From Sphyrna mokarran (Eukaryota): DNA of 64,000 nt. The position numbers and the translations under genes were made by a program. The notes beneath the pieces are model-generated. The model made no database searches, was not told the origin of the DNA, and was given only the letters and a program-made list of their open reading frames with translations. Positions 10,909 to 58,700 of this stretch are shown one piece after another (the stretch's first letter is position 1; the number at the start of each line of letters is the position of its first letter). The stretch lies in contig JAGIQG010000009.1 of the NCBI GenBank assembly GCA_024679065.1, positions 95,728,001 to 95,792,000 of the forward strand, in the 5' to 3' direction.

Positions 10909-12047
10909 AGTCCGATGTTGTGTCCAATCAGATTGAGGTTCAGTGTGAACAGAAAAGACAGAAGGAATGAGTTGAGAAAATGGTCTTTCTTTGGAAAAGA
11001 GTTTCCTCCAAATGTTTCCCCAACACGAGAGAAGCAGCAATGATTGGACTGATAGTGCTGGTCCTTCTGTGTGGAGAGGTGTCTGCAGGTGAGTGATGGG
11101 GTGTGAGAGGGGCAATGCCAGGCTGGGTGGAGGTCTTACTCTCGGTTTGGAATCAGTGTTTTGGGGTTCATGCCCTGATCTGTGTGTGTGAGGGTGTTGG
11201 TGTTTTTAGGATGTATATCCTCAATTCTCTCTCTCTATTTCAGGCTCTCACTCTCTCCGGTATTTCCTCACGGGAATGACTCCGATCCCGGGTCTCCCGG
11301 AGTTTGTGGGTGTCGGTTATGTGGACGGTGTCCAGTTTGTTGTGTACGACAGTGATCGGGGGGAGCTGATCCCCCGGGAGCAGTGGATGGTGGAGAGCGA
11401 GGGTCCGGCAGCCTGGGAGGGGAAGAAAATCTTCATAAAGCAGCAGGAAACGAGTTCTAAAGCTAATACTGAGATCCTCAAGTCCCGCAGCAACCAGACA
11501 GGAGGTGAGCGCTCACTCTCGCAGCACCCGGGGATCCAGGCGGGAATGAGGAGAAACCCAGAGTGGATCAGGAACCGGGAGCCAGAGGCTGATTGGCTGC
11601 GATTGGAGATGTGACAGGAAATGTGATTGGCTGTAAATCTGTGTTTGAGTGGGGGCGGGGGGGGGGGGGGCCAGTATTCAATGTTGATTGGCTATTTGCC
11701 TTGTTAGATTGGTTCTGATTGGCTTTGCAGGTGAGATCACCCATTGGGACTATCTCTGGCTGTTTGTGTTTCTGATCCACAGGGATCCATGTCTGTCAGA
11801 TAATGACTGGCTGTGACCTGTGGGATGATGGGACCACGAGTGCATTCAGTAAATACGCGTGGGACGGACGTGATGTTCTCTGCTTTGACCAGGATTACAT
11901 GGTGTGGGTGACCCCAGTGCCCTGGGGGGAGAGCATCAAAAATAGATGCAACTGGCTGGATAACAATATTCAGCGATGGAAACATTACTTTGCGATGGAG
12001 TGTATCGAGTGGCTGAGAAAATACCTGGAATACGGACGGAGAGAATT

Positions 12048-12325
12048 GAGAGTCGGTGAGTGAGGGGGGAGTGAGAGTTGGTGAGTGAGGGGGGGAGTGA
12101 GAGTCGGTGAGTGAGGGGTGGTGGAGTGAGAGTCGGGATGGAGGGAGTGGGAATGAGAGTCGGTGAGTGAGGGGTGGAGTGAGAGTCGGTGAGTGAGGGG
12201 GGGAGTGAGAGTCGGTGAGTGAGGGGTGGAGTGAGAGTCGGTGAGTGAGGGGTGGAGTGAGAGTCGGTGAGTGAGGGGTGGAGTGAGAGTCGGTGAGTGA
12301 GGGGGAGAGTGAGAGTCGGTGAAGG
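12048..12325 (+). repeat. 26-bp G-rich intron-3 minisatellite containing the exon-3 donor
   Basis: AGAGTCGGTGAGTGAGGGGTGGAGTG x~10; paralogs at 30900-31090 and 40750-40890. Confidence 0.9.
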
Positions 12326-12789
12326 GGGTGATGCCGGGACTCTCTATCTCGAGGTTTCTGTACTGACTCCTCTTTCTTTCTCTCTCAGTTGCCCCCGTCG
12401 TGTCCTTTACCCGTCGGGGTGATTCTAACCGGCTGTCCTGTGCCGTCACCGGGTTTTACCCTCAAGCCGTCGAGGTGAATCTGTGCAGAGATGGAGTGGT
12501 GATTGGTGAGACTCTGTCCACTGGGATCTTACCCAATCACGACAGCACCTACCAGATCCGGAATGGATTGAGTTTGATCCAGAGGACCAGGCCGAGTATT
12601 CCTGTTGGGTGGAACACAGCGGGATGAAGGAGACACTGGTGGTGATTTATGGTAAGACTGTTTCTCACTGTTAGAGAGGACCCAGCCTCAGACTAGGATC
12701 ACAGGAGGGAGGGTCAGTGCTGAGCTGTCAGCCCAGGATATAGAGAGAGGAAATAAATATTATTCAATGTGTTATATATTATGGTTTCA

Positions 12790-13175
12790 CATTACAATGT
12801 GATACAGTGTATCATTGGATATTGTGATTGCACTGAGCCTGGTGTGACATTGGACACAAGAGTAGGTCTTGACCTGGAATGTTCTGGGATATTACAATTG
12901 GTGGAGCCGAGTGTATCTGGGATACTGCAGTAGGACAGTCTGTAGTGTATCCTGAGATATTCCTCGTAAGACCAATCCCTGTGCATCTGGGATATTTTAG
13001 CCTGTCAGGACCCGGTGTATCCTGGGATATTACAGGAGATGGGACACTATGAATTATCAGAGGATGGAGAGACCTTGGTGCACCCAAGAAACAATACTTT
13101 TCATTGTGCACCAATTTATCTGACAATAATAAATCTTATCAAATATTACAGTAGGACAGGACCCAGTGCATCCTG
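12790..13175. repeat. degenerate intron-4 tandem repeat (GTGTATCCTGGGATATTACAG core)
   Basis: Core recurs every ~33-36 bp; paralogs at ~31640-32370 and 41380-41760. Confidence 0.65.
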
Positions 13176-13189
13176 CAAATTCACTTCTA

Positions 13190-14455
13190 TCAAATTAAGA
13201 TCAGTACTCAGAAAAATAATGGAATTCCTTCTATTGGAGACAATTCATGAAAATCTAGGATCAAATATTATGACAATGAACAGTCAGCATGAATTTTGAA
13301 CAGGAAAATATTGTTTTACTCCACTTAGTGGAATTTTTGCATATGTTTCAGAGGGAATAGACAATGGAAATGTAATAGATGTAATATATAATTTTTCAAG
13401 TGTAATAGGAAAGGGGGATCATGATGGACTGATTGACAAGATCAAAGCAAGTGGAGTTATTAGTGACAGAATGGATTACTTGCTGACTTTGGGACAGAAA
13501 GCAGAGAGTGTGAGTAAAGGGAGTTTCAGAGTTACAGAAAGAGATAAATGATGTTTCACAAGGTTCAATGCTGGAATCACCACTGTTCACAACTTACCCT
13601 CCAAATCTTAGATATTGGAAGCAAAAATACCATTTCTTAGTTTGCAGATAACATCAAATTGGGGGAATTATTTGATTTTGAGGAGCACTGGAATAAATTA
13701 ACAGGACATGAATAAATCTCAGCAAATAATTGGTGAATAAAGTTCAGCACAGATAAAGATGAGGTATTTTTCAGTTAATGATAAATAGGGAGGTTTGAGA
13801 AACAAAGGATCTTAGTATACAAATACACCAATCAGAAAATATACAGTTACAGGTGAGGCAATAAATGAAATACAATCAAAAACCAGATTTTACTTCTCAA
13901 GGAATAGAATTGTAAAGCAGGGCTGTTGTTGCCAAATTTTGGTTAAACCACATTTAAAGACCATGTGCAGTTCCAGTCACCAATTCATACAAAGGATTTA
14001 GAGTCAGGGGAGAGAGTGTGGAGAAGATTGACAGAGATTATTCCAGAAATGAGTGGGTGGACATCTCAAGAAAGGATTGACCAGCTGGTTCTCTACTCTC
14101 AGAAAACAGAAGGCTGAGAGTTGATCTAATCGAGAACTTTAAAATTATGAAATGTTTTTTATAGAGTGGACACATCAAGAGTGACCCTCATGTGAGAAGA
14201 GCACATCCAGTGACCATCAATACAAGAACCTCAATGGGGAATTCGTGAGAAATCTCTTCACCCAAAGAGTGATGAGAATGTGGAGCTGAACTGAACCGAA
14301 CAGTTTGAGGGGAAGATAGACAAGCAAATGAAGGAGAAGGGAATAGAGTTAAAATGATTCAATTAGATGAGGAATGATGGAAGGAGGCTCAAGTGGAACA
14401 GAAATATCAGCACCAATGGATGGGCCAAAAGACCATTTTCTATATCGTATCTCCT
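13190..14455 (+). mobile_element. old CR1 RT fragment in intron 4 (paralogs 32370-33710 and 41770-43030)
   Basis: SQHEF, QGS.L, FADN.K and FTQRV remnants; shared by all three gene copies. Confidence 0.8.
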
Positions 14456-16019
14456 GCGTTTCATGATTCACTCTCTCTCTGATTCACTCTCACATTTCTC
14501 TTTCTTTCTCTGATTCACTCTCTCATTCTGTCTCCCTAATCTTTCTCTATCTCTCATTCTCTCTGTCCTTTACTCATAGTTGGTTGTCCTCTCTCTGATT
14601 CTCTCCCATTCTCTCACATTCTATTTCGCTCTGATTCTCACTTTTCCCTCTCCCTGATTCACTCAGTCTCTCTGATTCTCTCTCTCTAACAGAACCAGAG
14701 TCTCGCTCCCACGTTGCTGTTGCTGCCGGGATTGTGGTCGGGGTCCTCGTGCTCATCGTTCTCATCATTGTGGTTGTCATCACCAACAACAAGAAAGGTA
14801 GGAATTGGAGGAAAAGAGCATTAGGCGAACTGTAGTGGATCCAGGCAGTCCGGGAGGCTGGAATTGATTCATGCCATGACGAGACTTTTCAATCAATTCA
14901 CAATAATGAATGTCAGAGACAGTGGATGATAGTTCACTGTGGGCAGGGATTCAGGGAGAGTATTGCAGAGTAATGGTGGCTTAGGCTGTGGGTCTCAGGT
15001 TAGTGTGGGGGCAGGGAGGGGGTTGGTGAGTGGGTGGAAGAGCTGCAGGGTTGGGATAGGGTCAGTAAGGGGCTCATGGTAAAGGGGGAGTGTCTGAGAA
15101 ATGTGGGAAGGGTCTCAAATTGGATGAGGAGTTCAGGGTATCAGTGAGGGCTCAGGTAAGAGTGAGGGTCCAACGACAGGATGGGAGGGAGGATCCAGGG
15201 TCAGATAGGAGTGAGGGTCTCAGATTGCGGTGTGAGAGAAGGTTCAGAATTCGGTTGTAGGGGCTCAGTACGAGTGAGAGTTCCAGCCTCTGTCTCTGAT
15301 TTTGTCTCAGTCTCATCACTCACTGAACATTCCTTGTGTTACAGGCAAAGGGAACAGCGACTAAATCCTGCAAATAGTAAGTTGATCTTCAAATATTGTC
15401 CTTTTGCAACTATGTACATCATTGTCCATTCTATTTCAAACATAGTATGTGTGTGTTTGTGTGTGTGCATCCATTGTGCGTTTGTGTGTGGATGTGTGGG
15501 CTTCTCTGTGTCACTGTCAGTTTGGATGTGTGAGAGTCTCTTCCTTTCTCTATGTCTCTCGGTCTCTGTTTGTCTCTCTCGTATTCTCTTGATCACATCC
15601 ACAGTCTCTGTCTCTCTGATAATGAACAAATTTTTAACACCTCTTCTTCCTTTAATAGCTTCTAATGGTGGGGATTCTTCATCCAGATCCTCCACAAGTT
15701 CCCGAGGTATGAACTGTGTTGATAAATATTGGGAGTTGATCCTTCTAACTGGGATATTCCCGTTGGATTTTACTGTATAATCTGGTGGGTGGGATGTGAG
15801 TCAGTGTCTGTCTATCACTGTATAGTCAGAAACATTCAACCTGGACAGTCTTCGCGAAGCTGTTCAATTTCCTAAAGAAAGTCAGAATTGACAGAGTTTT
15901 CCCTGAAGTCGGCCACTGGAGTCTGTCACTCCCACAGAATTTAACATCAGTAGTGTTTTATGATGAGTCTGATCATTTGCTGAATGTTTGGGGTGTGGAG
16001 TAGACTCAGGAGTTTATTT

Positions 16020-24670: not shown

Positions 24671-25334
24671 AACTTTCTCTCTTTCCGACAACAGTCAATC
24701 CGACAGCTCATTTTCCATCATCTCAATGGCATTGCCCCAGGTCTGTCTCCCCGCGGTTACAATCCGGACAACAGCATCAAACCGCCTCAGTTCACCCAGA
24801 ATTTTCCAACTTCAACACGGAATTCACAGAACATCAACAACCTTCCCCTCCCCTCTCCCCCTCTTTTCAGTTGTTGTCTGAATAAACTCAACCGTCGATC
24901 AACCATAGAATCCTTGCAGTGCGGAAGGAGGCCATTCGGCTCCTCGAGTCTGCACCGATTTCCGAAATAGCATTTTGTCCAGCAGCTGAGTTTCTCTCCA
25001 CCAAATTCCCAGCCTCTGACCCACTCTTGCAGCGACAGTGTTTAATTTCTTCTTTTCGAACCTGCTTCTGATATTCCACCAACCAGACATCAACAGCCCA
25101 TTCCTGAAAAACAGCGAGATCCATTTCTTCATCCTGATTCAATAATCTAATCTTTGGTCTCACATCTCCGTGATCTCTCACTATTTGTTCCTTCCTGTCG
25201 ACTTTCTCCCAATCATTCCAATTTCCCTGCTCTGATCGAAGCATCCAATCTCCAAATACTATTTCTTTATGCACCATTATATCTTTCAATTTAACTCTTG
25301 ACTGACCAGCTATTCACTTTTTCAAATCAAGTGC

Positions 25335-25465
25335 AGCACACAGCTCACACACAGAGAGGGACAGTATCAGTACAGGACACAGTTCACACACTGAGAGGGA
25401 CAGTATCAATACAGGACACAGTTCACACACTGAGAGGGACAGTATCAGTACAGGGCACAGCTCAT
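25335..25465. repeat. 39-bp minisatellite remnant (~3 units)
   Basis: Same unit at the paralogous position. Confidence 0.9.
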
Positions 25466-30028: not shown

Positions 30029-30156
30029 AGTCGTATTTTGTGTCTAATCAGATTGAGGCTCACTGTAAACCGGAAAAGACCGGAGTGAGTTGAGAAAATG
30101 GCTTTTCTTTGAAAAAGAGTTTTCTCCAAATGTTTCCCAACATAAAGGAAGCAGCA

Positions 30157-33100
30157 ATGATTGGACTGATAGTGCTGGTCCTTCTGTGTGGAGAGGTGTC
30201 TGCAGGTGAGTGATGGGGTGTGAGAGGGGCAATGCCAGGCTGGGTACTGGGGTATTAACCCTGGGTCAGTGAGTGATGGGGTGTGAAAGGCGCAATGCCA
30301 GGCTGGGTGGAGGTTTTGCTCTCGGTTTGAAATCAGTGTTTTGGGGTTCATGCCCTGATGTGTGTGTGTGTGTGTGTGTTTGAGGGTGTTGATGATATTT
30401 TGGGGTGTATATCCTGAATTCTCTCTCTATTTCAGGCTGTCACTCTCTCCGGTATTTCCTCATGGGAATGACTCCGATCCTGGATTTGATTGGCTGGTTG
30501 GATGAGGTCATCCAGTGAGACTGGTTCTGATTGGCTGTGCAGGTGAGATCACCCATTGGGACTGTCTCTGATTGGCTGTTTGTGTTTCTGGTCCACAGGG
30601 ATCCATGTCTACCAGCTGGTGACTGGCTGTGACCTGAGGGATAATGGGACTTCAAGGGGATTCACCCAGTACACATGGACAGATGTGATGTTCTCAGCTT
30701 TGACCAGGATCACATGGTGTGGGTGACCCCGGTGCCCTGGGGGGAAATCATCAAAAACAGATGCAACCGACTGACTGACAACATTCAGCGATGGAAACAT
30801 AGAGGTGGAGTGTATCGAGTGGCTGAGAAAATAGCCGGAGTATGGACAGAGAGAATTGAGAGTTGGTGTGTAAGCGGGTTGGGGGGGGGGGGGCAGGGGG
30901 GAGGAGATCGGTGAGTGAGGGAGGGGTGAGAGTCGGTGAGTGGGGGGGTGAGAGTCGGGGAGTGAGGGGGGGGTGAGAGCGGTGAGTGAGGGGGGGGAGT
31001 GAGAGTCGGTGAGTGAGGGAGGGGTGAGAGTCAGTGAGTGAGGGAGGGGTGAGAGTTAGTGTGTGAGGGGAGAGTGAGAGTCGGTGAAGGAGGTGATGCC
31101 GGGACTCTCTATCTCGAGGTTCCTGTACTGACTCCTCTTTCTTTCTCTCTCAGTTGCCCCCCGTCGTGTCCTTTACCCGTCTGGGTGATTCTAACCGGCT
31201 GTCCTGTGCCGTCACCAGCTTTTACCCTCAAGCCATCGAGGTGAATGTGTGCAGAGATGGAGTGGTGATTGGTGAGACTCTGTCCACTGGGATCTTACCC
31301 AATCACGACAGCACCTACCAAATCTGGAAATGGATCGAGTTTGATCCAGAGGACCAGGCCGAGTATTCCTGTCGGCTGGAACACAGCGGGATGAAGGAGA
31401 CACGGGTGGTGATTTACGGTAAGACTGTTTCTCACTGTTAGAGAGGACCCAGCCTCAGACCAGGATCACAGGAGGGAGGGTCAGTGCTGAGCTGTCAGCC
31501 CAGGGCAGCCTGAGGCCTGGGATACAGAGAGAGGGAAATAAATATTAACCTTCAATGCTTAACATATAATGGCCTTTAGAGCAAATTAATTTTAAGTCCA
31601 GGATTTGATATGAAACCTGGGAAACTACAGATTGATTATGCCCAGACTAACCTGGGATATTACAGTATAATGTACTGTATGTATGATTACAGTATTGATT
31701 CACCTGACAAAGAGGTTGAAACACCTTGAACGCTTATGAGTTTACTATCAAATAAATCGGTTGGACTTAAAACTGGTATTGTCAGACATCTTACTGATAT
31801 TATAGTATGGCATAATACAGTGTATCATGGGATATTACAGTAGTGCAGAGCCTGGCATATCATTGGAAAGTATACTATGTCTGAACCTGGGATATTCTGG
31901 AATATTACAATATGGCAGGCCCCAGAGGGTTAGATAGGGTGGACAGTGAGAGACTTTTTCCTCGGATGGTGATGGCTAACACGAGGGGACATAGCTTTAA
32001 ATTAAGGGGTGGTAATTATAGGACGGATGTCAGAGGTAGGTTCTTTACCCAGAAAGTAGTAAGGGCGTGGAATGCTCTGCCTGCAGCAGTTGTGGACTCG
32101 CCAACTTTAAGGGTGTTCAAATGGTCAGTGGATGGACATATGGATAACATTGGAATAGTTTAGATTAGAGGGTCATTAGATGGTTCCAGTGGTTGGCGCA
32201 ACATTGAGGGCCGAAGGGCCTGTACTGTGCTGTAATGTTCTATGTTCTATGTTCAGTGTATCCTTGGATATTACTGCACAATAGAACAAAGTGCATCCTC
32301 AGATGTCACAGTACAACCAAGCCCAGTATAACTTGGTTATTACAGTATAACAGGGCCCAGTGCATCCTGGAAGTTTACTTCAGTCAGATTAAATCAGTTT
32401 CAGAAAAATAATGGAACTCCTTCTATTGGAGAGAATTCATGAAAATCTCGAAATCAAAAAATTAACAATGAAAAGTCAGCATAGATATTGAAATGGAAAA
32501 TCTTGTTTTATTCCACTTTGTGAATTTTTTGAGGATGTAACAGTGTGGAATAGTCAATGATAATGTAATGTATGTAATTTAATATGATTTTCAAATGAAT
32601 CAATAAGGTGATTAATGATCAACTAATGGATAAGGTCAAAGAATATGGAGTCAGGGATAAGTGACAGAATGGATTGCTTGCTGACTTTAAGACAGACAGC
32701 AGACAGTGTGAGTAAAGGGAGTTACTCAGAGTGACAGAATGTGGGAAATGGTGTTCCACAAGGATCAGTGCTGGGATCATCGCTGTTCATATTTTACACT
32801 CACTGATTTGGACATTGGAATCAAAAACACAATTTCTCAATTTGCAGATGGCACCAAATTGGGGGAATTGTTTGATATTGAGGAGAATTGCAGGAAATTA
32901 GTCGGACATTAATAAACTTGTAGAATGGGCAAATATTTATTCAGCACAGATAAACATGAGGTAGTGTTCTGTTATGGATGGATAAGGAGGTCACTTATCA
33001 TGAGAAAGGATAGGATTGAGGAATAAAGGAATCTGGATGTGCAAATACACTAATCAAATAACAGGTTAGACAAGGCCATAAACAAAACAAACAGAAAACC

Positions 33101-33838
33101 AGGTTTTATTTCTTTTGAATTGTACATTACTAATTGCAATTTGTACAAATGTAAATTATTGCTAACCTTTATCAAAATTGGATAGACCACATTTAGGGAT
33201 TGTGTACAGTTCCAGTCACCATTTCATACAAAGGATACAGAGTCAGGGGAGAGAGTGTAGAGAAGATTTACAGAGATGATTCCAGAAATGAGTGGGTGGA
33301 CATCTCAGGAAAGGATTAACAGCTGGGTTTCTGGACTCAGAAAACAGAAGGCTGAAGGTTGATCTAATCGAGGGTTTAAAATTATGAAAGGTTTTCATAG
33401 ACAGGATCTCCTTTTGTGGAAAGATCATAACTCGAGGTTATCAATACAAGATAGTCACCAAGAACCCAGTGAGGAATTCATGAAACCGCTTCACCCAATG
33501 AGTGATGAGAATGTGGAGCTCACAGACACAAGGACTGGCTGAACTGAACAGGATAGCTCAAGGGGAAAATAGACAAGTCACTGAGAAAGAAGGGAATAGA
33601 CAGGTAAGATGATGGAATTAGATGTGGAAAGACGGGATGAGCTTCAGGTGGAAAATTAATACCAGCATCAGCTGGATGGGCCAAAAGGTTTTTTTCTGTG
33701 TCATATATCTTGTGTTTCCTAATTCTTTCTCTCATTCTGATTTCTTTCTTTCTCTTTGATTCATTCTCTCTCCATCACTCTCCATCCTTATGCCCATCAC
33801 TCTCATCATTGTGGCTGTCGTCATCTTCAACAAGAAAG
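30157..33838 (+). pseudogene. MHC class I heavy chain copy B, decayed pseudogene
   Basis: Leader 30157-30205; a1 truncated after 45 nt (30436-30480) by a deletion; a2 30599-30865 with 1-bp and 5-bp deletions and TAG at 30832; a3 31154-31418 with +1 C; only the 3' half of the TM exon (~33795-33838) remains; cytoplasmic exons absent; 3'-flank homology resumes at ~34570. Confidence 0.92.
31925..32254 (+). mobile_element. CR1 3' end inserted in intron 4 of copy B
   Basis: RGLDRVDSERLFP...TRGHSFKL; TTCTATG tail. Confidence 0.88.
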
Positions 33839-36823: not shown

Positions 36824-38407
36824 TGAAGGAACAGGATGTAAGGTTTCCAAATTTGCTGTTGATATTGAGATTGGTGGAAGGCAGGGATATGATGAGTTCA
36901 TTGTGATTCTGCAATGGGATAAGGATAGATTGGGTGACTGGGCAAAAATCTATCAAATGGGGTTTAATGGGGAAATTGTGAGATCATGCACTTTGGCAGA
37001 AGTAATATAGATTATTATCTAAATGGAGAGAGAGAGACTGCAGGTGAGTGAAGTATAGAGGGATTTAGTTTTTTTAGTGCATGAATCACAAAAAGCTATC
37101 AGGTAGGTCCAACAGGGAGTTAAGAAAGCAGACAGCATTTTGGTCTTTGTTGCAAAGAAATTAGAATTTAAAAATGGGGAGATTTTGTTGCAATTGCATC
37201 GGGTATTGGTGAGGCCTCATCTGAAATATCTCATACAGTTTTGGTCCTCTTACCAACAAAGTATATAGTATCCGTGGAGGCAGTCCATTCTTCACCTGGC
37301 TAATTTCTGGAACGACAGGGTTCACCTATCAAGGCAGAGTAAATAGTGTGGGTCTGTATTCCTTGGAGTTTAGAAGAGTGAGTGGTGACTCATTCAAACA
37401 TATAAGATCTGTGGGAGCTTGACAAGGTGAGATGTTTTCACTCTGGGGAGAATCTCAAATATGGGGATATAGCTGCAAGATAAAGAGCTGGTCATTTAAA
37501 ACTGAGATGTGTAGAAATTTCTTCTCACAGAGTGTGGTGAATCTTTGGAATTCTCTGCCCCAAATGGTGATGGAGGTTGAATTATTTGTAGTATTTAAAG
37601 TGGAGATGGATGAATCTTTGATAGATCGAAGAATGGGCTGCTGGCTATGAGAAAAGAAGCTGAGGCAGACATAGATCAGCCATGATCATGTTGAGTGGTG
37701 GGGCAGGCTTGAAGGGCTTAGTGGCCTATTCCTGCTTCTTGTGTTCATGTGATTTAGCAGTGTAGAATACACATCCACTCTCTGCTCCAAAAAAATGTCA
37801 ATGTCTGTACAATTGGAGTTTCTAAGACTGATAGATATCATTGCTCCATAAATACTAAGGTATGGGTTAGTCAGAAACGGGAGTTCAGTTGGCAGTGATC
37901 TAATTGGTGTGATGGGCAAGGCTGGCAGGATTAAGGAACACTGAGTGTCTGGAGATATTGAGGCTCTGGCAATTAAAAAGGAAGTTGTCAGGTATAGGCA
38001 ACTGGATTCAAGTGAATCCCTTGGAGAGTATGGGGGTGATGCAACAAAAACTTCCTATTTTTAAATTCTAATTTCTTTGCAACAAAGACCAAAATGCTGT
38101 CTGCTTTCTTGACTCCCTATTGGACCTACCTGATAGCTTTTTGTGATTCATGCACTAAAAAACTAAATCCCTCTATACTTCACTCACCTGCAGTCTCTCT
38201 CTCTCCATTTAGATAATAATCTATATTACTTCTGCCAAAGTGCATGACCTCACAATTTCCCCATTAAACCCCATTTGACAGGTTTTTGCCCAGTCACCCA
38301 ATCTATCCTTATCCCATTGCAGAATCACAATAAACTCATCATATCCCTGCCTTCCACCAATCTCAATATCAACAGCAAATTTGGAAACCTTACATCCTGT
38401 TCCTTCA
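36824..38407. repeat. ~370-bp inverted repeat (arms 36824-37192 and 38040-38407)
   Basis: The second arm is the reverse complement of the first with only scattered mismatches; spacer ~850 bp. Confidence 0.92.
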
Positions 38408-39402: not shown

Positions 39403-39540
39403 TCCTATCCGACAACTGACGTCAGCAGCTGTATTTACTTGATTGGACAATTCTCAACATTGAGACAGTTTCTAGCCGTGTTTGTGTCTATTCTGCCGGA
39501 GACTGATGACTCGGTCAATCTCTTTACTTTGATTGATTCA
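39403..39540 (+). promoter_or_regulatory. copy C promoter: distal CRE+CCAAT module and degenerate proximal X-Y module
   Basis: TGACGTCA 39417-39424 with ATTGG 39442; the proximal module reads TGACTCG and ATTGA instead of TGACTCA and ATTGG. Confidence 0.55.
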
Positions 39541-39654: not shown

Positions 39655-39718
39655 ATGAGGGAAGTAGCAGTGATTGGACTGATAGTGCTGGTCCTTCTGT
39701 GTGGAGAGGTGTCTGCAG
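39655..39718 (+). CDS. copy C exon 1, signal peptide
   Basis: GCACCATG in frame with hydrophobic VIGLIVLVLLCGEVSA; donor G|GTGAGT. Confidence 0.8.
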
Positions 39719-42700
39719 GTGAGTGATGGGGTGTGAGAGGGGCAATGCCAGGCAGGGTACTGGGGTATTAACCCTTGGTTAGTGAGTGATGGGGTGTGAG
39801 AGGGGCAATGCCAGGCTGGGTGGAGGTTTTGCTCTTGGTTTGGAATCAGTGTTTTGGGGCTCATGCTATAATCTGTATGTGTGTGTGTGAGAGAGAGAGG
39901 GTGTTGGTGTTTTTAGGATGTAATCCTGAATTCTCTCTATTTCAGACTCTCACTCTCTCCAGCAATTCTTCACGGGAATGACTCCGATCCCAGGTTTCCC
40001 AGAATTTGTCGTTGTCGGTAATGTGGATGGTGTCCAGTTTGTTATGTACAACAGTGATCGGAGGGAGCTGATCCCCCGGGAACAGTGGATGGTGGAGAGC
40101 GAGGGTCCGGCAGCCTGGGAGAGGAAGAAGAGCTTCGTACGGGAGCAGGAGATGCATTTTAAACGTTGGATTCCGCTCCTCATGTCCCGCAGCAATCAGA
40201 CAGGAGGTGAGTGCTCACTCTCCCAGCACCCGGGGATCCCGGTGGGAATGAGGAGAAACCCAGAGTGGATCAGGAACGGGGAGCCCGAGGCTGATTGGCT
40301 GCGATTGGAGATGTGACAGGAAATGTGATTGGCTATGAATGTGTGGAGGCATTGAGACTGGCTCTGATTGGCTGTGTGTGTGTGGGAGAGGGGGCAGAGT
40401 AGTTGGTGTTGATTGGCTGTGCAGGTGGGAATCACCCATTGGGACTGTCTCTGATTGGCTGTTTGTGTTTCTAATCTACAGGGATCCATGTCTACCAGCT
40501 GATGACTGGCTGTGACCTGAGGAATGATGGGACTTCGAGTGCATTCATCCAGTTTGGGTGGGACGGACATGATTTTCTCAGCTTCGACCAAGATCACATG
40601 ATATGGGAGACCCAGGTGCCCTGGGGGGAGAGCACCAAAAACAGGTGCGACCGGCTGACTGACAACAACCAGCGATGGAAAGATTACCTGAAGGTGGAGT
40701 GTATCGAGTGGCTGAGAAAATACGTGGAGTATGGACAGGGAGAATTGAGAATCGGTGAGTGAGGAGGGGATGAGAGTGGGGAGGGGGGTGAGTCGGTGAG
40801 TGAGATTTGTTGGAGTGAGGGGGGAGTGAGAGTGGGTGAGTGGAGGGGGGGAGTGAGAGTGGGTGAGTGAGGGGGGGAGTGAGAGTTGATGAAGTGGGTG
40901 ATGCCGGGACTCTCTGTCTCAAGGTTCGTGTACTGACTCCTCTTTCTTTCTCTCTCAGTTGCCCCCGTCGTGTCCTTTACCCGTCTGGGTGATTCTAACC
41001 GGCTATCCTGTGCCGTCACCGGGTTTTACCCTCAAGCCATTGAGGTGAATCTGTGGAGAGACGGAGTGATGATTGGTGAGACTCTGTCCACTGGGATCTT
41101 ACCCAATCATGATAGCACCTACCAGATCCGGAAATGGATCGAGTTTGATCCAGTGGACCAGGCCGAGTATTCCTGTCGGGTGGAACACAGCGGGATGAAG
41201 GAGACATTGGTGGTGATTTATGGTAAGACTGTTTCTCACTGTTAGAGAGGATCCAACCTCAGACCAGGATCACAGGAGGGAGGATCAGTGCTGATCTGTC
41301 AGCCCAGGACAGCCTGAGGCCCAGGACACAAAGAGAGGGAAATAAATATCATTCAATATCATACATTATGGTTTCACAGTACAACATGATACAGTGTATC
41401 ATTGGATATTGTGATTGCATTGGGCCTGGTGTAACATTGGACATGAGAGTAGGTCTTGACCTGGAGTGTTCTGGGATATTACAGTTGGTGATGCCCAGTG
41501 TATCGGGGATATTGCAGTAGCACAGATTGTGGTGTATCCTGGGATATTCCCGAAGGGCAAATACCAGTGTTTCTGGGATATTTTAGCTTCTCGTGACCTG
41601 GTGTATCCCGTGCTATTGCGGGGATAGGACACCGTGAAATATCAGAGAATGGAGAGAGCCTAGTATATCCAAGAGCAATGCTTTTCACTGTATACCAACG
41701 CATGTGTCAACAATAAATCGTATCAAATATTACTGTAGGACCGGGCCTCAGTGCATCCTGGAAGTTTACTTCAGTCAGATTAAGATCAGTATTCAGAAAA
41801 GTAATGGAATTCCTTCCATTGGAGACAATTCATGAAAATCTAGAATCAAATTCTCTAATAATGAACAGTCAGCATGGATTTTGAACTGGAAAATGTTGTT
41901 TTACTCCACTTAGTGGAATTTTTGAGGATGTAACAAAAATAATAGACAATGGAAATGTAATAGATGTGCTATATAATTTTTCAAATGTAATAGAAATCGG
42001 TCATGATGGACTGATTGACAAGGTCAAAGTAAGCAGAGTTATGGGATGAGTGACAGAATGGATTACTCACTGACTTTGGGACAGAAAGCAGAGAGTGTGA
42101 GTAAAGGGAGTTTCAGAGTTACAAAAGGGGTAAATGATCCACAAGGTTCGGTGCTGGGATCACCGCTGTTCACAACTTACACTCCATAACTTGGATATTG
42201 GAATCAAAAACACCATTTCTTAGTTTGCAGATAACATCAAATTGGGGGAATTATTTGATTTTGAGGAGAACTAGAAGAAATTAATAGGACATGAATAAAT
42301 TTCAGCAAATAGTCGGTGAATAAAGTTCAGCACAGATAAATGTGAGGTATTTTTCAGTTAATGATGAATAGTGTTGAGAAACAAAGGATCTTGGTGTACA
42401 AATACACCAATCAGTAAACGTACAGTTACAAGTTAGGCAATAAACAAAATACAATCAAAAATCAGGTTTTACTTCTCAAGGAATAGAATTGTAAAGCAGG
42501 GATGTTATTGCCAAACCTTCGTTAGGCCACATTTAAAGACTGTGTGCAGTTCCGATCACCATTTCATACAAAGAATATAGAGTCAGGGGAGAGAATGTAG
42601 AGAAGATTTACAGAGATGATTCCAGAAATGGTGGATGGACATCTCAGAAAAGGATTGACTGGCTGGGTCTCCGCTCTTGGTAAAACAGAAGATTGAGGGT

Positions 42701-44246
42701 TGATCTAACTGAGAACTTTAAAATTATGAAAGATGTTTTATAGACAGACACCCTCTTGTGCAAAGAGCATATCCAGTACCCATCAGTACCCCATGGGGAA
42801 TTCATAAGAAACCTCTTCACCCAAAGAGTGATGAGAATGTGGAGCTCGCTGCCACAGGGAGTGGCTGAACTGAACATTATAGTTTAAGGGGAAGATAGAC
42901 AAGCAAATGAAGGAGAAGGGAATAGAGTTAAAATGGTTGAATTAGATGAGGAAAGATGGAAGGAGGCTCAAGTGGAACATAAATACCAGCAGCATGGGTG
43001 GAAAGGCCATTTCCTATGTTGTATTTCCTGTGTTTCCTGACTCTCTCTTTATGATTCACTCTCACATTTCTGTTTCTTTCTCCCTGATTCACTCTCTCAT
43101 TCTGTCTCCCTAATCTTACTCTATCTCTCATTCTCTCTCTTAGTTGATTGTCCTCTCTCTCATTCTCTCCCATTCTCTCTCATTCTATTTCACTCTGATT
43201 CTCACTTTTCCCACTCACTGATTCACTCAGTCGCTCTGACTCTCTCTCTAACAGAACCAAAGTCTCGCTCCCAAGTTGCTGTTACTGTTGGGATTGTGGT
43301 CGGGGTCCTCGTGCTCATCATTCTCATCATTGTGGCTGTCGTCCTCTATAAGAAGAAAGGTAGGAATTGGAGGGCAAAGAGCGGTAGGTGAACTATAGTG
43401 CATCCAGGCAGTCTGGGAGCCTGGAATTGCCATGACTAGACTTTTGAATCAATTCACAATAATGAATGTCAGAGACAGTGGATAATAGTTCACTGGGGGC
43501 AGGGATTCTGGGAGAGTATTCCAGAGTAACGTTGGCTGAAGCTGTGGGTCTCCGGTTGGTGTGGTGGCGGGAAGGGGGTTGGTGAGTGAGTGGAAGAGCT
43601 GCAGGGTTGGGATAGGGTCAGTAAGGGGCTCATGGTAAAGGGGGAGTGTCTGAGAATTGTGGGAAGGGTCTCAAATTGGATGAGGAGTTCAGAGTATCAG
43701 TGAGGGCTCAGGTAAGAGTGAGGGTCCAACGACAGGATGGGAGGGAGGATCCAGGGTCAGGTAGGAGCGAGGGTCTCAGATTGCGGTGTGAGTGAAGGTT
43801 CAGAATTCAGTTGTAGGGGCTCAGTATGAGTGAGAGTTCCAGCCTCTGTCTCTGATTTTCTCTCAGTCTCATCACTCACTGAACATTCCTTGTTTTACAG
43901 GCAAAGGGAAGAACGACTACAATCCTGCAAATAGTAAGCTGATCATCAAACACTGTCCTTATGCAAATGTGTACATCATTGTTCATTCTGTTTCAAACAT
44001 TGTGTGTGTGTGTGCGTGTGCATCTGTCATGCGTTTGTGTGTGAGTGTGTGGGCTTCTCTGTGTCATTGTCAGTATTGATGTGTGAGAATCTTTTTTTTT
44101 CTCTGTCTCTTTGTCTCTCTCATATTCTCTTGATCACATCCATTGTCTCTGTCTCTCTGATAATGAACAAATTTTTGACACTTCTTCTTCCTTTAACAGC
44201 TTCTGATGGTGGGGATTCCTCATCCAGATCCTCCACAAGTAGCTGA
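39655..44246 (+). CDS. MHC class I heavy chain (non-classical-like), intact copy C, 7 exons, 348 aa
   Basis: Exons, all GT-AG with phase-1 junctions: leader 39655-39718 (MREVAVIGLIVLVLLCGEVSA), a1 39946-40206 (DSHSLQQF...EFVVVGNVDG...W...SRSNQTG), a2 40482-40754 (IHVYQLMTGC...WDGHDF...ECIEWLRKY), a3 40959-41222 (LSCAVTGFYP...LPNHDSTYQ...YSCRVEH), TM 43255-43359, cytoplasmic 43901-43933 (GKGKNDYNPAN) and 44200-44246 (TSDGGDSSSRSSTSS*). Total 1047 nt, in frame. C101/C164, the Ig-C1 cysteines and the N86 glycan site are present. Confidence 0.93.
39946..40206 (+). CDS. copy C exon 2, alpha-1 domain
   Basis: ttcag acceptor, 261 nt, SHSL..F / PEFV.VG.VDG / NQT motifs, donor G|GTGAGT. Confidence 0.93.
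40482..40754 (+). CDS. copy C exon 3, alpha-2 domain
   Basis: 273 nt; H..Q.M.GC, WDG.DF, ECIEWL.KY. Confidence 0.93.
40959..41222 (+). CDS. copy C exon 4, alpha-3 Ig-C1 domain
   Basis: 264 nt; LSCAVTGFYP, LPNHDSTYQ, YSCRVEH. Confidence 0.93.
43255..43359 (+). CDS. copy C exon 5, connecting peptide and transmembrane segment
   Basis: EPKSRSQVAVTVGIVVGVLVLIILIIVAVVLYKKK after a long polypyrimidine tract; donor G|GTAGG. Confidence 0.88.
43901..43933 (+). CDS. copy C exon 6, cytoplasmic (YNPA motif)
   Basis: ttttacag acceptor, 33 nt, donor A|GTAAG; Y-x-x-A motif typical of class I exon 6. Confidence 0.8.
44200..44246 (+). CDS. copy C exon 7, Ser-rich cytoplasmic end and stop
   Basis: ttaacag acceptor; SDGGDSSSRSSTSS-TGA. 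Confidence 0.75.
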
Positions 44247-52120: not shown

Positions 52121-52769
52121 ACTTTCTCTCTTTCCGACAACAGTCAATCCGGCAGCTCATTTTCCATCATCTCAATGGCATTGCCCCAGTCTGTCTCCCC
52201 GCGGTTACAATCCGGACAACAGCATCAAACCGCCTCAGTTCACCCAGAATTTTCCAACTTCAACACGGAATTCACAAAACATCAACAACCTTCCCCTCCC
52301 CTCCTCCTCTTTTCAGTTGTTGTCTGAATAAACTCAACCATCGATCAACCACCGAATCCTTGCAGTGCGGAAGGAGGCGATTCGGCCCCTCGAGTCTGCA
52401 CCGAATAGCATTTTGCCCAAGAGCTGAGTTTCTCTCCACCAAATTCCCAGCCTCTGATCCACTCTTGCGGCGACAGTGTTTCATTTCTTTTTTCGAACCT
52501 GCTTCTGATATTCCACCAACCAGACATCAACAGCCCATTCCTGAAAAACAGCGAGATCCATTTCTTCATCCTGATTCAATAATCTAATCTTTGGTCTCAC
52601 ATCTCCGTGATCTCTCACTATTTGTTTCTTCCTGTCGACTTTCTCCCAATCATTCCAATTTCCCTGCTCTGATCCAAGCATCCAATCTGCAAATACTGTT
52701 TCTTTATGCACCATTTTACCTTTCATTTTAACTCTTGACTGACCAGCTATTCACTTTTTCAAATCAAGT

Positions 52770-55700
52770 ACAGCACAGAGCTCATATAGTGGGAGAGACA
52801 GTATCAGTACAGGACACAGTTCACACACTGAGAGGGAGAGTATCAATACAGGACACAGTGCACATAATGGGAGAGACAGTATCAGTACAGGACACAGTTC
52901 ACATACTGAGAGGGACAGTATCAGTACAGGACACAGTTCACACACTGAGAGGGACAGTATCAGTACAGGACACAGCGCACATACTGGGAGAGACAGTATC
53001 AGTACAGGACACAGCGCACACACTGAGAGGGACAGTATCAGTACAGGACACAGCTCACACACTGAGAGGGACAGTATCAGTACAGGACACAGCTCAAACA
53101 CTGAGAGGGACAGTATCAGTACAGGACACAGTTCACATACTGAGAGAGACAGTATCAGTACAGGACACAGCTCACACACTGAGAGGGGCAGTATCAGTAC
53201 AGGACACAGTTCACACACTGAGAGGGACAGTATCAGTACAGGACACAGTTCACATACTGAGAGAGACAGTATCAGTACAGGACACAGCACACACACTGAG
53301 AGGGACAGTATCAGTACAGGACACAGTTCACACACTGAGAGGGACAGTATCAGTACAGGACACAGTTCACACACTGAGAGAGACAGTATTAGCGTAGGAC
53401 ACAGTTCACACACTGAGAGGGACAGTATCAGTTCAGGACACAGCTCACACACTGAGAGGGACAGTATTAGCGTAGGACACAGTTCACACACTGAGAGGAC
53501 AGTATCAGTACAGGACACAGTTCATACACTCAGAGGGACAGTATCAGTACAAGACACAGCTCACACACTGAGAGGGACAGTATCAGTACAGGACACAACT
53601 CACACACTGAGAGGGACAGTATCAGCGTACGACACAGTTCACATACTGAGAGGGACAGTATCAGTACAAGACACAGTTCACATACTGAGAGGGACAGTAT
53701 CAGCGTAGGACACAGTTCACATACTGAGAGGGACAGTATCAGTACAAGACACAATTCACATACTGAGAGGGACAGTATCACCGTAGGACACAGTTCACAT
53801 ACTGAGAGGGACAGTATCAGTACAGGACACAGCTCACACACTGAGAGGGACAGTATCAGTACAGGACACAGTTCACACACTGAGAGGGACAGTATCAGTA
53901 CAGGACATAGCTCACACACTGAGAGGGACGGTATCAGTACAGGACACAGTTCACACACTGAGAGGGACAGTATCAGTACAGGACACAGTTCACATACCGA
54001 GAGGGACAGTATCAGTACAGGACACAGTTCACACACTGAGAGGGACAGTGTCAGTACAGGACACAGCTCACACACTGAGAGGGACAGTATCAGTACAGGA
54101 CACAGTTCACACACTGAGAGGGACAGTATCAGTACAGGCACAGTTCACACACTGAGAGGGACAGTATCAGCGTAGGACACAGTTCACACACTGAGAGGGA
54201 CAGTATCAGTACAGGACACAGCTCACACACCGAGAGGGACAGTATCAGTACAGAACACAGTTCACACACTGAGAGAGACCGTATCGGTACAGGAGACAGT
54301 TCACATACTGAGAGGGACAGTATCAGTACAAGACACAGTTCACATACTGAGAGGGACAGTATCAGCGTAGGACACAGTTCACATACTGAGAGGGACAGTA
54401 TCAGTACAAGACACAATTCACATACTGAGAGGGACAGTATCACCGTAGGACACAGTTCACATACTGAGAGGGACAGTATGAGTACAGGACACAGCTCACA
54501 CACTGAGAGGGACAGTATCAGTACACGACACAGTTCACACACTGAGAGGGACAGTATCAGTACACGACACAGTTCACACACTGAGAGGGACAGTATCAGT
54601 ACAGAACACAGTTCCACAGTGAGAGAGACAGAATCGTACGGACACAGTTCACATACTGAGAGAGACAGTATCAGTACAGGACACAGCTCACACACTGAGA
54701 GAGACAGTATCAGTACAGGACACAGCTCACACACTGAGAGAGACAGTATCAGTACAGGACACAGCTCACACCCTGAGAGAGACAGTGTGAGTACAGGACA
54801 CAGCTCACACACTGAGAGGGACAGTATCAGTACAGGACACAGTTCACACACTGAGAGGGACAGTATCAGTACAGGACACAGCTCAGAAACTGAGAGAGAC
54901 AGTATCAGTACAGGACACAGCTCAGACACTGAGAGGGACAGTATCGATACAGGACACAGCTCACACACTGAGAGGGACAGTATCAGTACAGGACCTAGCT
55001 CACACACTGAGAGGGACAGTATCAGTACAGGACACAGTTCATATACTGAGAGGGACAGTATCAGCGTAGGACACAGTTCACATACTGAGAGAGACAGTAT
55101 CATTGCAGGACACAGCTCACACACTAAGAGAGACAGTATGAGTACAGGACACAGCTCACAGACTGAGAGGGACAGTATCATTACAAGACACAGTTCACAC
55201 ACTGAGTGGGACAATATTAGTACAGGACACAGTTCACACACTGAGAGAGAGTATCAGCGTAGGACACAGTTCACAGACTGAGGGACAGTATCAGTACAGG
55301 ACACAGCTCACACACTGAGAGGGACAGTATCAGTACGGGACACAGCTCACACAGAGGGCTGTATCAGTACAGGACACAGTTCACACACTGAGAGGGACAG
55401 CATCAGTACAGGACACAGTTCACACAGTGAGAGGGGCAGTATCAGTACAGGACACAATTCACACACTGAGAGAGACCGTATTAGCGTAGGACACAGTTCA
55501 CACACTGAGACGGACAGTATCAGTACAGGACACAGCTCACACACTGAGAGAGACGGTATCAGTACAGGACACAGCTCAGACACTGAGAGGGACAGTATCA
55601 GTACAGGACACAGTTCACACACTTAGAGGGACAGTATCAGTACAGGACACAGTTCACACACTGAGAGGGACAGTATCAGTACAGGACACAGTTCACATAC

Positions 55701-58700
55701 TGAGAGGGACAGTATCAGCGTAGGACACAGTTCACATACTGAGAGGGTCAATATCAGTACAAGACACAGTTCACATACGGAGAGAGACAGTATCAGTACA
55801 GGACATTGTTCACATACTGAGAGGGACAGCATCAGTACAGGACACAGTTCACACAGTGAGAGGGGCAGTATCAGTACAGGACACAGTTCACACACTGAGA
55901 GAGACCGTATTAGCGTAGGACACAGTTCACACACTGAGACGGACAGTATCAGTACAGGACACAGCTCACACACTGAGAGAGACGGTATCAGTACAGGACA
56001 CAGCTCAGACACTGAGAGGGACAGTATCAGTACAGGACACAGTTCACACACTTAGAGGGACAGTATCAGTACAGGACACAGTTCACACACTGAGAGGGAC
56101 AGTATCAGTACAGGACACAGTTCACATACTGAGAGGGACAGTATCAGCGTAGGACACAGTTCACATACTGAGAGGGTCAATATCAGTACAAGACACAGTT
56201 CACATACGGAGAGAGACAGTATCAGTACAGGACATTGTTCACATACTGAGAGAGACAGTATCAGTACAGGACACAGTTCACACACTGAGAGGGACAGTAT
56301 CAGCGTGGGACAAAGTTCACACACTGAGAGGGACAATATCAGTACAGGACACAGCTCACACACTGAGAGGGACAGTATCAGTACGGGACACAGCTCACAC
56401 GCTGAGAGGGACTGTATCAGTACAGGACACAGTTCACACACTGAGAGAGACCGTATCAGCGTAGGACACAGTTCACACAGTGAGAGGGACAGTATCAGTA
56501 CAGGACACAATTCACACACTGAGAGAGACCGTATCAGCGTAGGACACAGTTCACACACTGAGACGGACAGTATCAGTACAGGACACAGCTCACACACTGA
56601 GAGGGACAGTATCAGTACAGGACACAGCTCACACACTGAGAGGGACAGTATCAGTTCATGACACAGTTCACACACTGACAGGGACAGTATCAGTAGAGGA
56701 CACAGTTCACACACTGATAGGGACAGTATCAGTGTAGAACACAGTTCACTTACTGAGAGGGACAGTATCAGTACAGGACACAGTTCACACACTGAGAGGG
56801 ACAGTATCAGTACAGGACACAGCTCACACACTGAAAGGGACAGTATCAGTAAAGGACACAGTTCACATACTGAGAGGGACAGTATCAGTACAGGACACAG
56901 TTCCACACTGAGAGGGACAGTATCAGTACAGGACACAGCGCACATACTGGGAGAGACAGTATCAGTACAGGACACAGCGCACACAGTGAGAGGGACAGTA
57001 TCAGTACAGGACACAGCTCACACACTGAGAGGGACAGTATCAGTACAGGACACAGCTCAAACACTGAGAGGGACAGTATCAGTACAGGACACAGTTCACA
57101 TACTGAGAGAGACAGTATCAGTACAGGACACAGCTCACACACTGAGAGGGACAGTATCAGTACAGGACACAGTTCACACACTGAGAGGGACAGTATCAGT
57201 ACAGGACACAGTTCACATACTGAGAGAGACAGTATCAGTACAGGACACAGTCACACACTGAGAGGGACAGTATCAGTAGGACACAGTTCACAACTGAGAG
57301 GGACAGTATCATGGTTGGGTTAGTAGGACACAGTTCACACACTGAGAGGGACAGTATCAGTACAGGACACAGTTCACACACTGAGAGGGACAGTATAGAC
57401 AGGACACAGTTCACACACTGAGAGAGTATCAGAGGCACAGTTCACACACTGAGAGGGACAGTATCAGTACAGGACACAGCTCACACACTGAGAGGGACAG
57501 TATCAGTACAGGACACAGCTCACACACTGAGAGGGACAGTATCAGTACAGGACACAGCTCACACACTGAGAGGGACAGTATCAGTACAGGACACAGTTCA
57601 CACACTGAGAGGGACAGTATCAGTACAGGACACAGTTCACACACTGAGAGAGACAGTATCAGTACAGGACACAGTTCACACACTGAGAGGGACAGTATCA
57701 GTACAGGACACAGCTCACACACTGAGAGGGACAGTATCAGTACAGGACACAGTTCACACACTGAGAGGGACAGTATCAGTACAGGACACAGCTCACACAC
57801 TGAGAGGGACAGTATCAGTACAGGACACAGTTCACACACTGAGAGGGACAGTATCAGTACAGGACACAGCTCACACACTGAGAGGGACAGTATCAGTACA
57901 GGACACAGTTCACACACTGAGAGGGACAGTATCAGTTCAGGACACAGCTCACACACTGAGTGGGACAGTATCAGTAAGGACACATTTCACACACTGAGAG
58001 GGACAGTATCAGTACAGGACACAGTTCACACACTGAGAGGGACAGTATTAGTACAGGACACAGTTCACACACTGAGAGGGACAGTATCAGTAGAGGACAC
58101 AGTTCACACACTGATAGGGACAGTATCAGTGTAGAACACAGTTCACATACTGAGAGGGACAGTATCAGTATAGGACACAGTTCACATACTGAGAGGGACA
58201 GTATCAGTACAGGACACAGTTCACACACTGAGAGGGCAGTATCAGTACAGGACACAGTTCACACACTGAGAGAGACAGTATCAGCGTAGGACACAGTTCA
58301 CACACTGAGAGGGACAGTATCAGTACAGGACACAGTTCACACACTGAGAGGGACAGTATCAGTACAGGACGCAGTTCACACACTGAGAGAGACAGTATCA
58401 GCGTAGGACACAGTTCACACACTGAGAGGGACAGTATCAGTACAGGACACAGCTCACACACTGAGAGGGACAGTATCAGTACAGGACACAGTTCACACAC
58501 TGAGAGGGACAGTATCAGTACAGGACACAGTTCACACACTGAGAGGGACAGTATCAGTACAGGACACAGTTCACACACTGAGAGGGACAGTATCAGTACA
58601 GGACACAGTTCACACACTGAGAGGGACAGTATCAGTACAGGACACAGTTCCACACTGAGAGGACAGTATCAGTAGACACGTTCACACACTGAGAGGGACA

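What the first reader, a model, noticed from the sequence alone, without database searches (positions are those of the whole stretch)
39655..44246. Intact shark-type class I gene with a remodelled, probably non-peptide or restricted-ligand groove
Seen (HLA-A2 numbering; W60 to N86 aligns without gaps): the N-terminal anchors change to Q7, A59 and K63, while Y159, W167 and Y171 are kept. The C-terminal anchors are R84, T143, R146 and C147 in place of W147. Bulky F66, H73, F74 and W77 line the a1 helix. C147 is present in all three copies, and A59/K63 in both copies that retain a1. Established: classical class I conserves Y7, Y59, Y/R84, T143, K146, W147, Y159 and Y171. Inference: this is a locally expanded non-classical lineage, and the unpaired groove Cys147 could tether a ligand or form dimers.
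Basis: partly seen in the sequence, partly recalled or inferred. Interest (0 to 1): 0.75.

Follow-up and report, generated by a model that had tools for sequence, protein, structure and literature searches.

The report
Shark UBA-lineage nonclassical MHC gene
This is an intact shark immune-display (MHC class I) gene of an old, already described multicopy non-classical family (UBA), and its altered groove likely holds a narrow set of short or front-end-blocked peptides rather than a covalently tethered ligand.

Summary
It is not a new or local lineage. Trees place it (100/99 on a1+a2) in a shark-and-ray clade. That clade holds sawfish LOC127585956, which a published table puts in the C4-flanked class Ib cluster described as UBA-only, plus nurse and horn shark database proteins O19479/O19480. 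Most of the 'remodelling' is lineage-wide: K63 in 46 of 51 clade rows, Y59 in 0 of 51 (A in 28), F74 in 30. C147 is in 7 of 51, arose at least three times, and L147 is about as common; Mustelus paralogues already combine A59, K63, R146 and C147. Only Q7, N27 and W77 are private; Q7 and N27 are confirmed in public reads. The gene keeps R84, T143, R146, Y159, W167 and Y171, and its groove is average for the lineage. Best reading (inferred): the A pocket is disabled, with B- and F-pocket binding of a restricted set of short or N-blocked peptides. No support for a Cys147 tether. The ligand of UBA remains an open question.

The parts
39417..39446 (+). CRE/X2-like box plus Y box (inverted CCAAT) of a class I-type promoter; full module only in front of the intact gene
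   Evidence: 1 match in the window, 0.01 expected; copies A and B align only from the Y box on. Motif names recalled.
39655..39718 (+). Exon 1, signal peptide
   Evidence: intron 1 skipped by spliced contigs of lineage members in 3 of 4 runs
39946..40206 (+). Exon 2, a1 domain (Q7, N27, A59, K63, F66, H73, F74, W77, R84, N86 glycan site)
   Evidence: best PDB hit 6LUP, E 7.6e-23
40482..40754 (+). Exon 3, a2 domain (T99, C101, T143, R146, C147, Y159, E163, C164, W167, Y171)
   Evidence: best PDB hit 6LUP, E 1.4e-27
40959..41222 (+). Exon 4, a3 Ig C1 domain, both cysteines kept
   Evidence: up to 94-95% identical to Mustelus paralogues
43255..43359 (+). Exon 5, connecting peptide and transmembrane helix
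   Evidence: exon 4-5 joint seen as loose ends in RNA-type contigs
43901..43933 (+). Exon 6, cytoplasmic, with the tyrosine motif also found in classical UAA tails
44200..44246 (+). Exon 7, serine-rich tail and stop
11025..15705 (+). Copy A, pseudogene: first codon ACG, 1-nt deletion in a3, short exon 6 with a stop; keeps Y7, A59, K63, C95, C147
30142..33838 (+). Copy B, pseudogene: no first ATG, most of a1 deleted, frameshifts and a stop in a2, 1-nt insertion in a3, partial exon 5, no hit for exons 6-7

Best explanation
This is the intact copy in a three-copy tandem cluster of the shark non-classical UBA class I lineage, and it likely works as a beta-2-microglobulin-bound surface molecule that displays a narrow set of short or N-terminally blocked peptides, held by the C-terminus and a hydrophobic B pocket rather than by a free N-terminal amine. 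Shown: intact gene, lineage placement, residue pattern. Inferred step 1: loss of Y59 (lineage-wide) and Y7 (this gene), plus K63 in place of the usual E/Q/N, removes the amine-binding network of the A pocket. A K63-E163 salt bridge would close the A-to-B channel, as a bulky residue 63 and an R66-E163 bridge do in Mamu-B*098. Inferred step 2: F22, V24, L45, V67, F74 and small T99 would form a hydrophobic B pocket. Inferred step 3: R84, T143 and R146 would still bind a C-terminal carboxylate; the private W77 may fill space left by W147C. Inferred step 4: paralogues that vary in the central and F pockets would give each copy its own ligand set for innate-like T or NK-type receptors. C147 is then one of several tolerated replacements, not a functional thiol.
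For: Placement: 53-row clade at 100/88; a1 99 and a2 97 SH-aLRT separately; 100/99 with both class I halves of sawfish LOC127585956, marked MHC-Ib between RGL-like and C4 in the cluster the paper says holds only UBA. Lineage-fixed N-terminal half: K63 46, L66 43, A67 36, T99 31, E163 41, W167 51 of 51 rows; variable centre and C-end. Mustelus paralogue variability is 0.47 at groove positions, 0.21 elsewhere in a1/a2 and 0.09 in a3. Gene-specific I143T restores a classical C-terminal anchor. Precedents read: A-pocket network (PMC8236899 section 18), HLA-F with blocked A pocket (PMC7590165), Mamu-B*098 (PMC4735555). Intact promoter module, a3 with 6 synonymous to 3 replacement private changes, and spliced lineage transcripts at the same junctions in 3 RNA-type runs.
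Against: No ligand data were found for any UBA in the papers seen, and no model of this protein itself was made. F9, Q70, L97 and F66 are larger than the S9, A70 and T97 of Mamu-B*098, so a C14 chain may not fit. N27 replaces a nearly invariant tyrosine (Y42, S7 of 49 clade rows; its role at the b2m interface is recalled), which could impair b2m binding. The dominant transcript in the closest RNA-type run is another paralogue or allele (Y27; 14 differences in 170 nt); the Q7 form appears among the listed pieces only as 98 nt at depth 34.8 against 458.7, joined to an exon-4 end (229 pieces not shown). Groove enrichment of private changes is not significant (12 of 43 vs 23 of 133, p=0.19).
Confidence: 0.45

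Rival explanations
1. A decaying duplicate in a birth-and-death cluster: still open, but weakly expressed or unable to pair with b2m, so that Q7, N27 and W77 are drift.
For: Both neighbours are pseudogenes. Q7, N27 and W77 occur in 0 of 94 compared rows. The a2 end branch is long (0.31), with 16 replacement to 5 synonymous private changes. The Q7 exon is a minor RNA form.
Against: Seven exons and all splice sites are intact. Only this copy keeps the CRE plus Y box and the first ATG. The a3 branch is 0.018. Pooled private-change ratio is 0.47 (p=0.039), though pseudogene A scores 0.49, so this test is weak.
Confidence: 0.22
2. Non-peptide ligand (lipid or small metabolite), as in CD1, MR1 or chicken YF1.
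For: The lineage groove is more hydrophobic than classical shark rows (mean hydropathy 0.28 vs -0.31). Gene C has F9, F66, F74, W77, I114, F116 and F123. The N-terminal anchors are lost.
Against: Charged or polar R62, K63, Q70, H73, R84, R146, R155 and E163 remain. C-terminal peptide anchors are kept or regained. Side-chain volume is 4969 vs 4819+/-143 (clade) and 4839+/-153 (classical-type rows), not an outlier. Sharks have separate CD1-like lineages, UFA/UGA. MR1 hits in the fold search are at 36-37% identity, below 6LUP at 56%.
Confidence: 0.15
3. Closed or empty groove acting as a ligand-independent receptor ligand (HFE-, MIC- or open-conformer HLA-F-like).
For: Aromatic F66, F74, W77 and W156 could meet across the groove. 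N27 hints at weak b2m contact.
Against: Groove volume is not exceptional. Paralogue variation concentrates at groove positions, as expected if ligands differ.
Confidence: 0.12
4. Cys147 is a functional thiol that tethers a ligand or links dimers.
For: It is the only unpaired ectodomain cysteine. It is kept in all three copies and in 5 of 14 Mustelus clade rows. It arose at least 3 times in the lineage (one origin rejected, p-AU 6e-9) and occurs in 0 of 43 classical-type rows. A Cys42-Cys147 link is reported for HLA-G.
Against: TGG to TGC is one base change, and L147 (also one step) is in 6 of 51 rows, so repeated origin fits relaxed constraint. Retention in the two pseudogenes and the Mustelus subclade is shared descent. 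Residue 147 normally faces the peptide. HLA-G dimers use the accessible Cys42, which is absent here.
Confidence: 0.06

Closest known systems
Elasmobranch UBA class Ib lineage (sawfish LOC127585956; nurse shark O19479/AAC60347, horn shark O19480/AAC60348; Mustelus asterias XP_078073662.1, XP_078073666.1)
   Same: Same clade; multicopy tandem array; non-Tyr 59, K63, T99, E163, W167. The two Mustelus proteins also have A59, K63, F66, R146 and C147, at 81-82% ectodomain identity.
   Different: Private Q7, N27 and W77; T143 where 42 of 51 rows have I; 67% identity to O19479 and 73% to O19480.
Classical shark UAA (nurse shark PDB 6LUP; Triakis scyllium class I antigens)
   Same: Exon structure, fold (stand-in model's best hit is 6LUP), R84, T143, Y159, W167, Y171, N86 glycan, tail motifs.
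   Different: 50-55% identity; Y7, Y59, E63 and W147 lost; separate clade.
Rhesus Mamu-B*098 (binds N-myristoylated 5-mers; PMC4735555)
   Same: Bulky residue 63 with E163; F22, V24, V67, F74; small residue 99; C-terminal anchors kept.
   Different: Keeps Y7 and W147 and has small S9/A70/T97; unrelated origin; an analogy only.
HLA-G and HLA-F
   Same: HLA-G has an unpaired Cys147; HLA-F has a blocked A pocket and binds N-extended peptides.
   Different: No Cys42 equivalent here; not orthologous.

Membership tests
UBA (elasmobranch class Ib) | Groups with genes of the published UBA cluster | tested here: met
   Both halves of LOC127585956 fall in the gene's clade, 100/99. The locus is marked MHC-Ib between RGL-like and C4. 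The paper says that cluster is UBA only and next to c4. The table itself says only 'MHC-Ib'.
UBA (elasmobranch class Ib) | Groups with the founding cDNAs of Bartl et al. 1997 | tested here: inconclusive
   Groups with O19479 and O19480. That these are Gici-11 and a horn shark clone of that paper is recalled. link UBA and Gici-11 to that paper, but the accession search found 0 papers.
UBA (elasmobranch class Ib) | Multicopy tandem cluster | tested here: met
   Three same-strand copies in 35 kb with 84-90% identical flanks.
UBA (elasmobranch class Ib) | Derived from the UAA family | tested here: met
   The clade nests among shark classical-type rows, as stated in PMC12562908.
UBA (elasmobranch class Ib) | Lies next to C4 and RXRB in the MHC | not testable with these tools
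   No genome held; 131 other open frames of the window gave no hit above a Pfam cut-off.
Classical class Ia (UAA) | Y7, Y59, D/E/Q63, R84, T143, K146, W147, Y159, Y171 conserved | tested here: not met
   Q7, A59, K63 and C147; R for K146; R84, T143, Y159 and Y171 kept.
Classical class Ia (UAA) | Single polymorphic locus beside TAP/PSMB | not testable with these tools
   No genome or population data.
UCA, UDA, UEA, UFA, UGA | Groups with labelled members of these lineages | not tested
   No labelled reference was retrieved, and the defining papers were not held. Membership is unlikely given firm nesting in the UBA clade.
CD1-like or other lipid-binding class I | Nearly all-hydrophobic groove without peptide anchors | tested here: not met
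   Six peptide-anchor positions kept or conservative, eight charged or polar groove residues; crude sequence index only.
HLA-G-like disulfide dimer | Surface cysteine at 42 | tested here: not met
   Ectodomain cysteines are the two canonical pairs and C147 only.

The most novel reading that the evidence does not exclude
The whole UBA lineage is an ancient shark-and-ray class I family built to present N-acylated or otherwise N-blocked short peptides. A K63-E163 gate shuts the A pocket, and a conserved hydrophobic B pocket takes the acyl group or a long aliphatic anchor. This gene, having also lost Y7, is its most specialised form, in which W77 and C147 rebuild the F pocket and C147 might even capture a thioester or disulfide ligand. 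That would put lipopeptide presentation by a dedicated class Ib lineage at the base of jawed vertebrates.
Probability: 0.15. Interest if true: 0.72.

Novelty: new member of a known kind. Interest (0 to 1): 0.27.

Why it matters
As a locus it is ordinary: one more UBA copy, with near-equivalents annotated in Mustelus asterias. Its use is that it sharpens an open question. The function of cartilaginous-fish class Ib lineages is stated to be unknown, and the lineage-wide pattern found here (Y59 lost, K63/E163/W167 fixed, variable C-terminal half) gives a concrete, testable ligand hypothesis. This gene, with Q7 and regained T143, is a natural contrast to Y7/I143 paralogues.

Tried and rejected
No genome held, so synteny is untested. 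No model of the window's own protein was made; the Mustelus paralogue P0131 was folded as a stand-in (pLDDT 80.5), gave only the class I fold and no coordinates, so pocket geometry and C147 exposure are open. Literature: searches found no description of UBA groove residues. Almeida 2020/2021 were not held, Bartl 1997 was not read, and they may already describe this pattern. No RNA holder was listed on record (X2, X16 and X19 are RNA by guess). Whether the dominant X2 transcript keeps C147 cannot be settled: no difference is listed at 40646-40648, but 88 rows were hidden. MR1-like reading rejected as generic similarity. A C95-C147 disulfide was considered because copy A and the five Mustelus C147 rows have C95, but this gene has Y95 and the pairing is shared descent. 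Groove-versus-rest enrichment was not significant. The FastTree fallback was not used. A motif scan was mis-specified and ignored. Three look-ups in earlier findings returned nothing. No complex prediction was run.
Full report
Observation. The window holds three same-strand class I copies. The one at 39655-44246 has seven GT-AG exons and an open 348-codon frame. Its a1 and a2 exons hit nurse shark 6LUP best among solved structures (E 7.6e-23 and 1.4e-27). The HLA-type numbering agrees with the PDB ranges: Qa-2 3-87 to a1 2-84, and HLA-A68 142-173 to a2 stretch 10-42. Copy A (11025-15705) has a frameshift in a3, an ACG first codon and a stop in exon 6. Copy B (30142-33838) lacks most of a1 and has frameshifts in a2 and a3. 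Both keep the C147 codon. Only the intact gene keeps a CRE/X2-like box with the Y box (39417-39446; 1 match, 0.01 expected; motif names recalled). None of 131 other open frames of 72 codons or more reached a Pfam cut-off, and no genome is held, so synteny is untested.

Reality and expression. Four runs were laid on exons 1-4 at 85% likeness. A DNA contig piece (X1, 167 nt) and a piece from an RNA-type run of another study (X2, 98 nt) match the Q7/N27 stretch with no difference. X1 also shows copy B's deletion junction, so it is probably the same species and may be the source. Contigs in X2, X16 and X19 skip introns 1 and 3 at the modelled sites, and X19 skips intron 2, which confirms the model for lineage members. 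The dominant X2 form is a different paralogue or allele (depth 458.7, Y27). The Q7 piece has depth 34.8 and is joined to an exon-4 end, which would be a back-splice or read-through from an upstream copy (copy B's exon 4 ends with the same variant base). RNA status is a guess for these runs and 229 pieces were not shown, so expression of a full-length gene C is not shown.

What it is. A search with the a2 exon gave 12 shark proteins; a profile of nine of them gave 216 hits, 120 listed. I aligned 97 cartilaginous-fish rows (including cluster members and two halves of P0001), 7 outgroups and the two window copies. I left out tandem-domain models (P0002, P0013, P0014, P0022), partial rows and most bony-vertebrate hits. 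In the ectodomain tree the gene lies in a 53-row clade (100/88) spanning horn, carpet, mackerel and ground sharks and three ray proteins, with a sawshark protein as sister (100/96), apart from 6LUP and the Triakis antigens. Inside it is a 9-row group with Mustelus asterias paralogues (95/90). The clade holds in a1 (99) and a2 (97) alone; in a3 24 of 26 rows group (92). Sawfish member P0058 clusters with LOC127585956 (87% by BLAST). The supplement of PMC10751288 marks that locus MHC-Ib in a three-gene group between RGL-like and C4, and the text says the c4-flanked class Ib cluster consists only of multicopy UBA. Both class I halves of that locus fall in the gene's clade at 100/99. The clade also holds O19479 and O19480, which I recall as clones of Bartl et al. 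1997, the paper cited for UBA and Gici-11; no call links accession to paper. So the gene is a UBA member with high probability (about 0.9). Labelled UCA-UGA references were not available.

How special is the groove? Counts over 51 clade rows against 43 classical-type rows (P0045, P0094 and P0120 left out; some rows are near-duplicates): position 59 is A28/S12/F6, Y 0, against Y38. K63 is 46 against 0 among the six commonest residues of the others (E22, N8, Q6, W2, L2, Y1). T99 is 31 against 1. Position 143 is I42/T3 against T42; 146 is R17/K7 against K37; 147 is W34/C7/L6 against W41/L2. F74 is 30, H73 10, F66 5; position 77 is Y17/F5/H4. Thus A59, K63, R146, F74 and an aromatic 77 are lineage traits. 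XP_078073662.1 and XP_078073666.1 already combine A59, K63, F66, R146 and C147. C147 needs three changes on the tree, and one origin is rejected (p-AU 6e-9), but L147 is about as frequent, which fits a relaxed site. Private to this gene (0 of 94 rows) are Q7, N27, W77 and several non-groove changes. A crude index over 30 groove positions gives volume 4969 against 4819+/-143 (40 clade rows) and 4839+/-153 (41 others), and hydropathy 0.28 against 0.28 and -0.31 (positions and scales recalled). Private changes are not significantly enriched in the groove (12 of 43 vs 23 of 133, p=0.19). Against A and B, private changes are 3 replacement to 6 synonymous in a3 and 16 to 5 in a2; pooled ratio 0.47 (p=0.039), but pseudogene A gives 0.49, so constraint is only weakly shown.

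Mechanism. In classical molecules Y7, Y59, D/E/Q63, Y159 and Y171 bind the P1 main chain, and R/Y84, T143, residue 146 and W147 hold the C-terminal end (PMC8236899 section 18). This gene has lost three of the five N-terminal residues, has a lysine at 63, and keeps R84, T143 (regained on its own branch) and a basic 146. In Mamu-B*098 a bulky residue 63 and an R66-E163 bridge cut off the A pocket, and a hydrophobic B pocket (Y7, F22, V24, M45, V67, F74, small 99) takes an acyl chain. HLA-F with a blocked A pocket binds N-extended peptides. The lineage's fixed K63, E163, W167, L66, A67 and T99, with a variable centre and C-end (groove variability 0.47 vs 0.21 and 0.09 among 14 Mustelus rows), point to the same logic. 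I therefore infer B- and F-pocket binding of a restricted set of short or N-blocked peptides (0.45). Rivals: decaying duplicate (0.22), non-peptide ligand (0.15), empty groove (0.12), functional C147 thiol (0.06). HLA-G has an unpaired Cys147, but its accessible Cys42 is the main dimer link, although a Cys42-Cys147 link is also reported; this gene has no such second cysteine. A stand-in model (P0131) confirmed only the fold. All mechanistic steps are inference; no ligand or structure of this protein was tested.

Papers seen. PMC10751288: parts 1-3 of 7 of the text, two supplement searches, and supplement parts 4, 18 and 19 of 98 (figures not seen). PMC8236899: passages and section 18. PMC12562908, PMC6523485, PMC2991771, PMC11276036, PMC7590165, PMC4735555, PMC1513397: passages. 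Bartl 1997 and Almeida 2020/2021: reference listings only; they may already describe these residues. Searches found no account of UBA groove residues in the held library.

Verdict. Observation confirmed; interpretation partly supported. New member of a known kind, interest 0.27. The boldest reading not excluded, an ancient lineage built for N-acylated or N-blocked peptides, has probability about 0.15 and would rate 0.72.

Noticed in passing
window 41220 to 39947 (run X2): A contig from an RNA-type run joins an exon-4 end to the Q7-type exon 2: a circular RNA of exons 2-4, or read-through from an upstream copy. Copy B's exon 4 ends with the same variant base. Several NCBI models of this lineage are also tandem fusions (P0001, P0002, P0133, P0277, P0288).
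   Followed up: partly
window 39417-39446: Only the intact gene keeps the CRE/X2-like box; homology of copies A and B begins at the Y box, so the duplications may have left them without a full promoter.
   Followed up: partly
window 40020-40022: Y27 is changed to N, absent from all 94 compared rows; it may weaken b2m contact (role recalled).
   Followed up: partly
window 11783-12055; P0003, P0006, P0130-P0132: Copy A and all five Mustelus C147 rows also carry C95 on the groove floor; gene C and copy B have Y95.
   Followed up: partly
window 12389-12651 and 31154-31418: Copies A and B, the dominant X2 transcript and several catshark proteins have an extra cysteine in a3 where gene C has tryptophan.
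   Followed up: no
window 52767-64000, 7998-9130, 25330-25464: A 39-bp satellite (289 copies, running off the window end) with shorter arrays before copy A and at the end of its duplication unit; it may mark duplication borders.
   Followed up: no
window 36824-37192 and 38040-38407: A 369-bp inverted repeat at 97% identity about 1.2 kb upstream of the gene's promoter.
   Followed up: no
window 4768-5226 and scattered: Endonuclease/reverse-transcriptase (LINE) remnant with a Pfam hit below cut-off; short repeated LINE-like tails recur at 17716, 20456, 31943 and 34638.
   Followed up: no
P0013 (sawfish LOC127585898): A tandem classical-type class I model that groups with sawfish P0059 but carries no MHC label in the published table.
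   Followed up: partly
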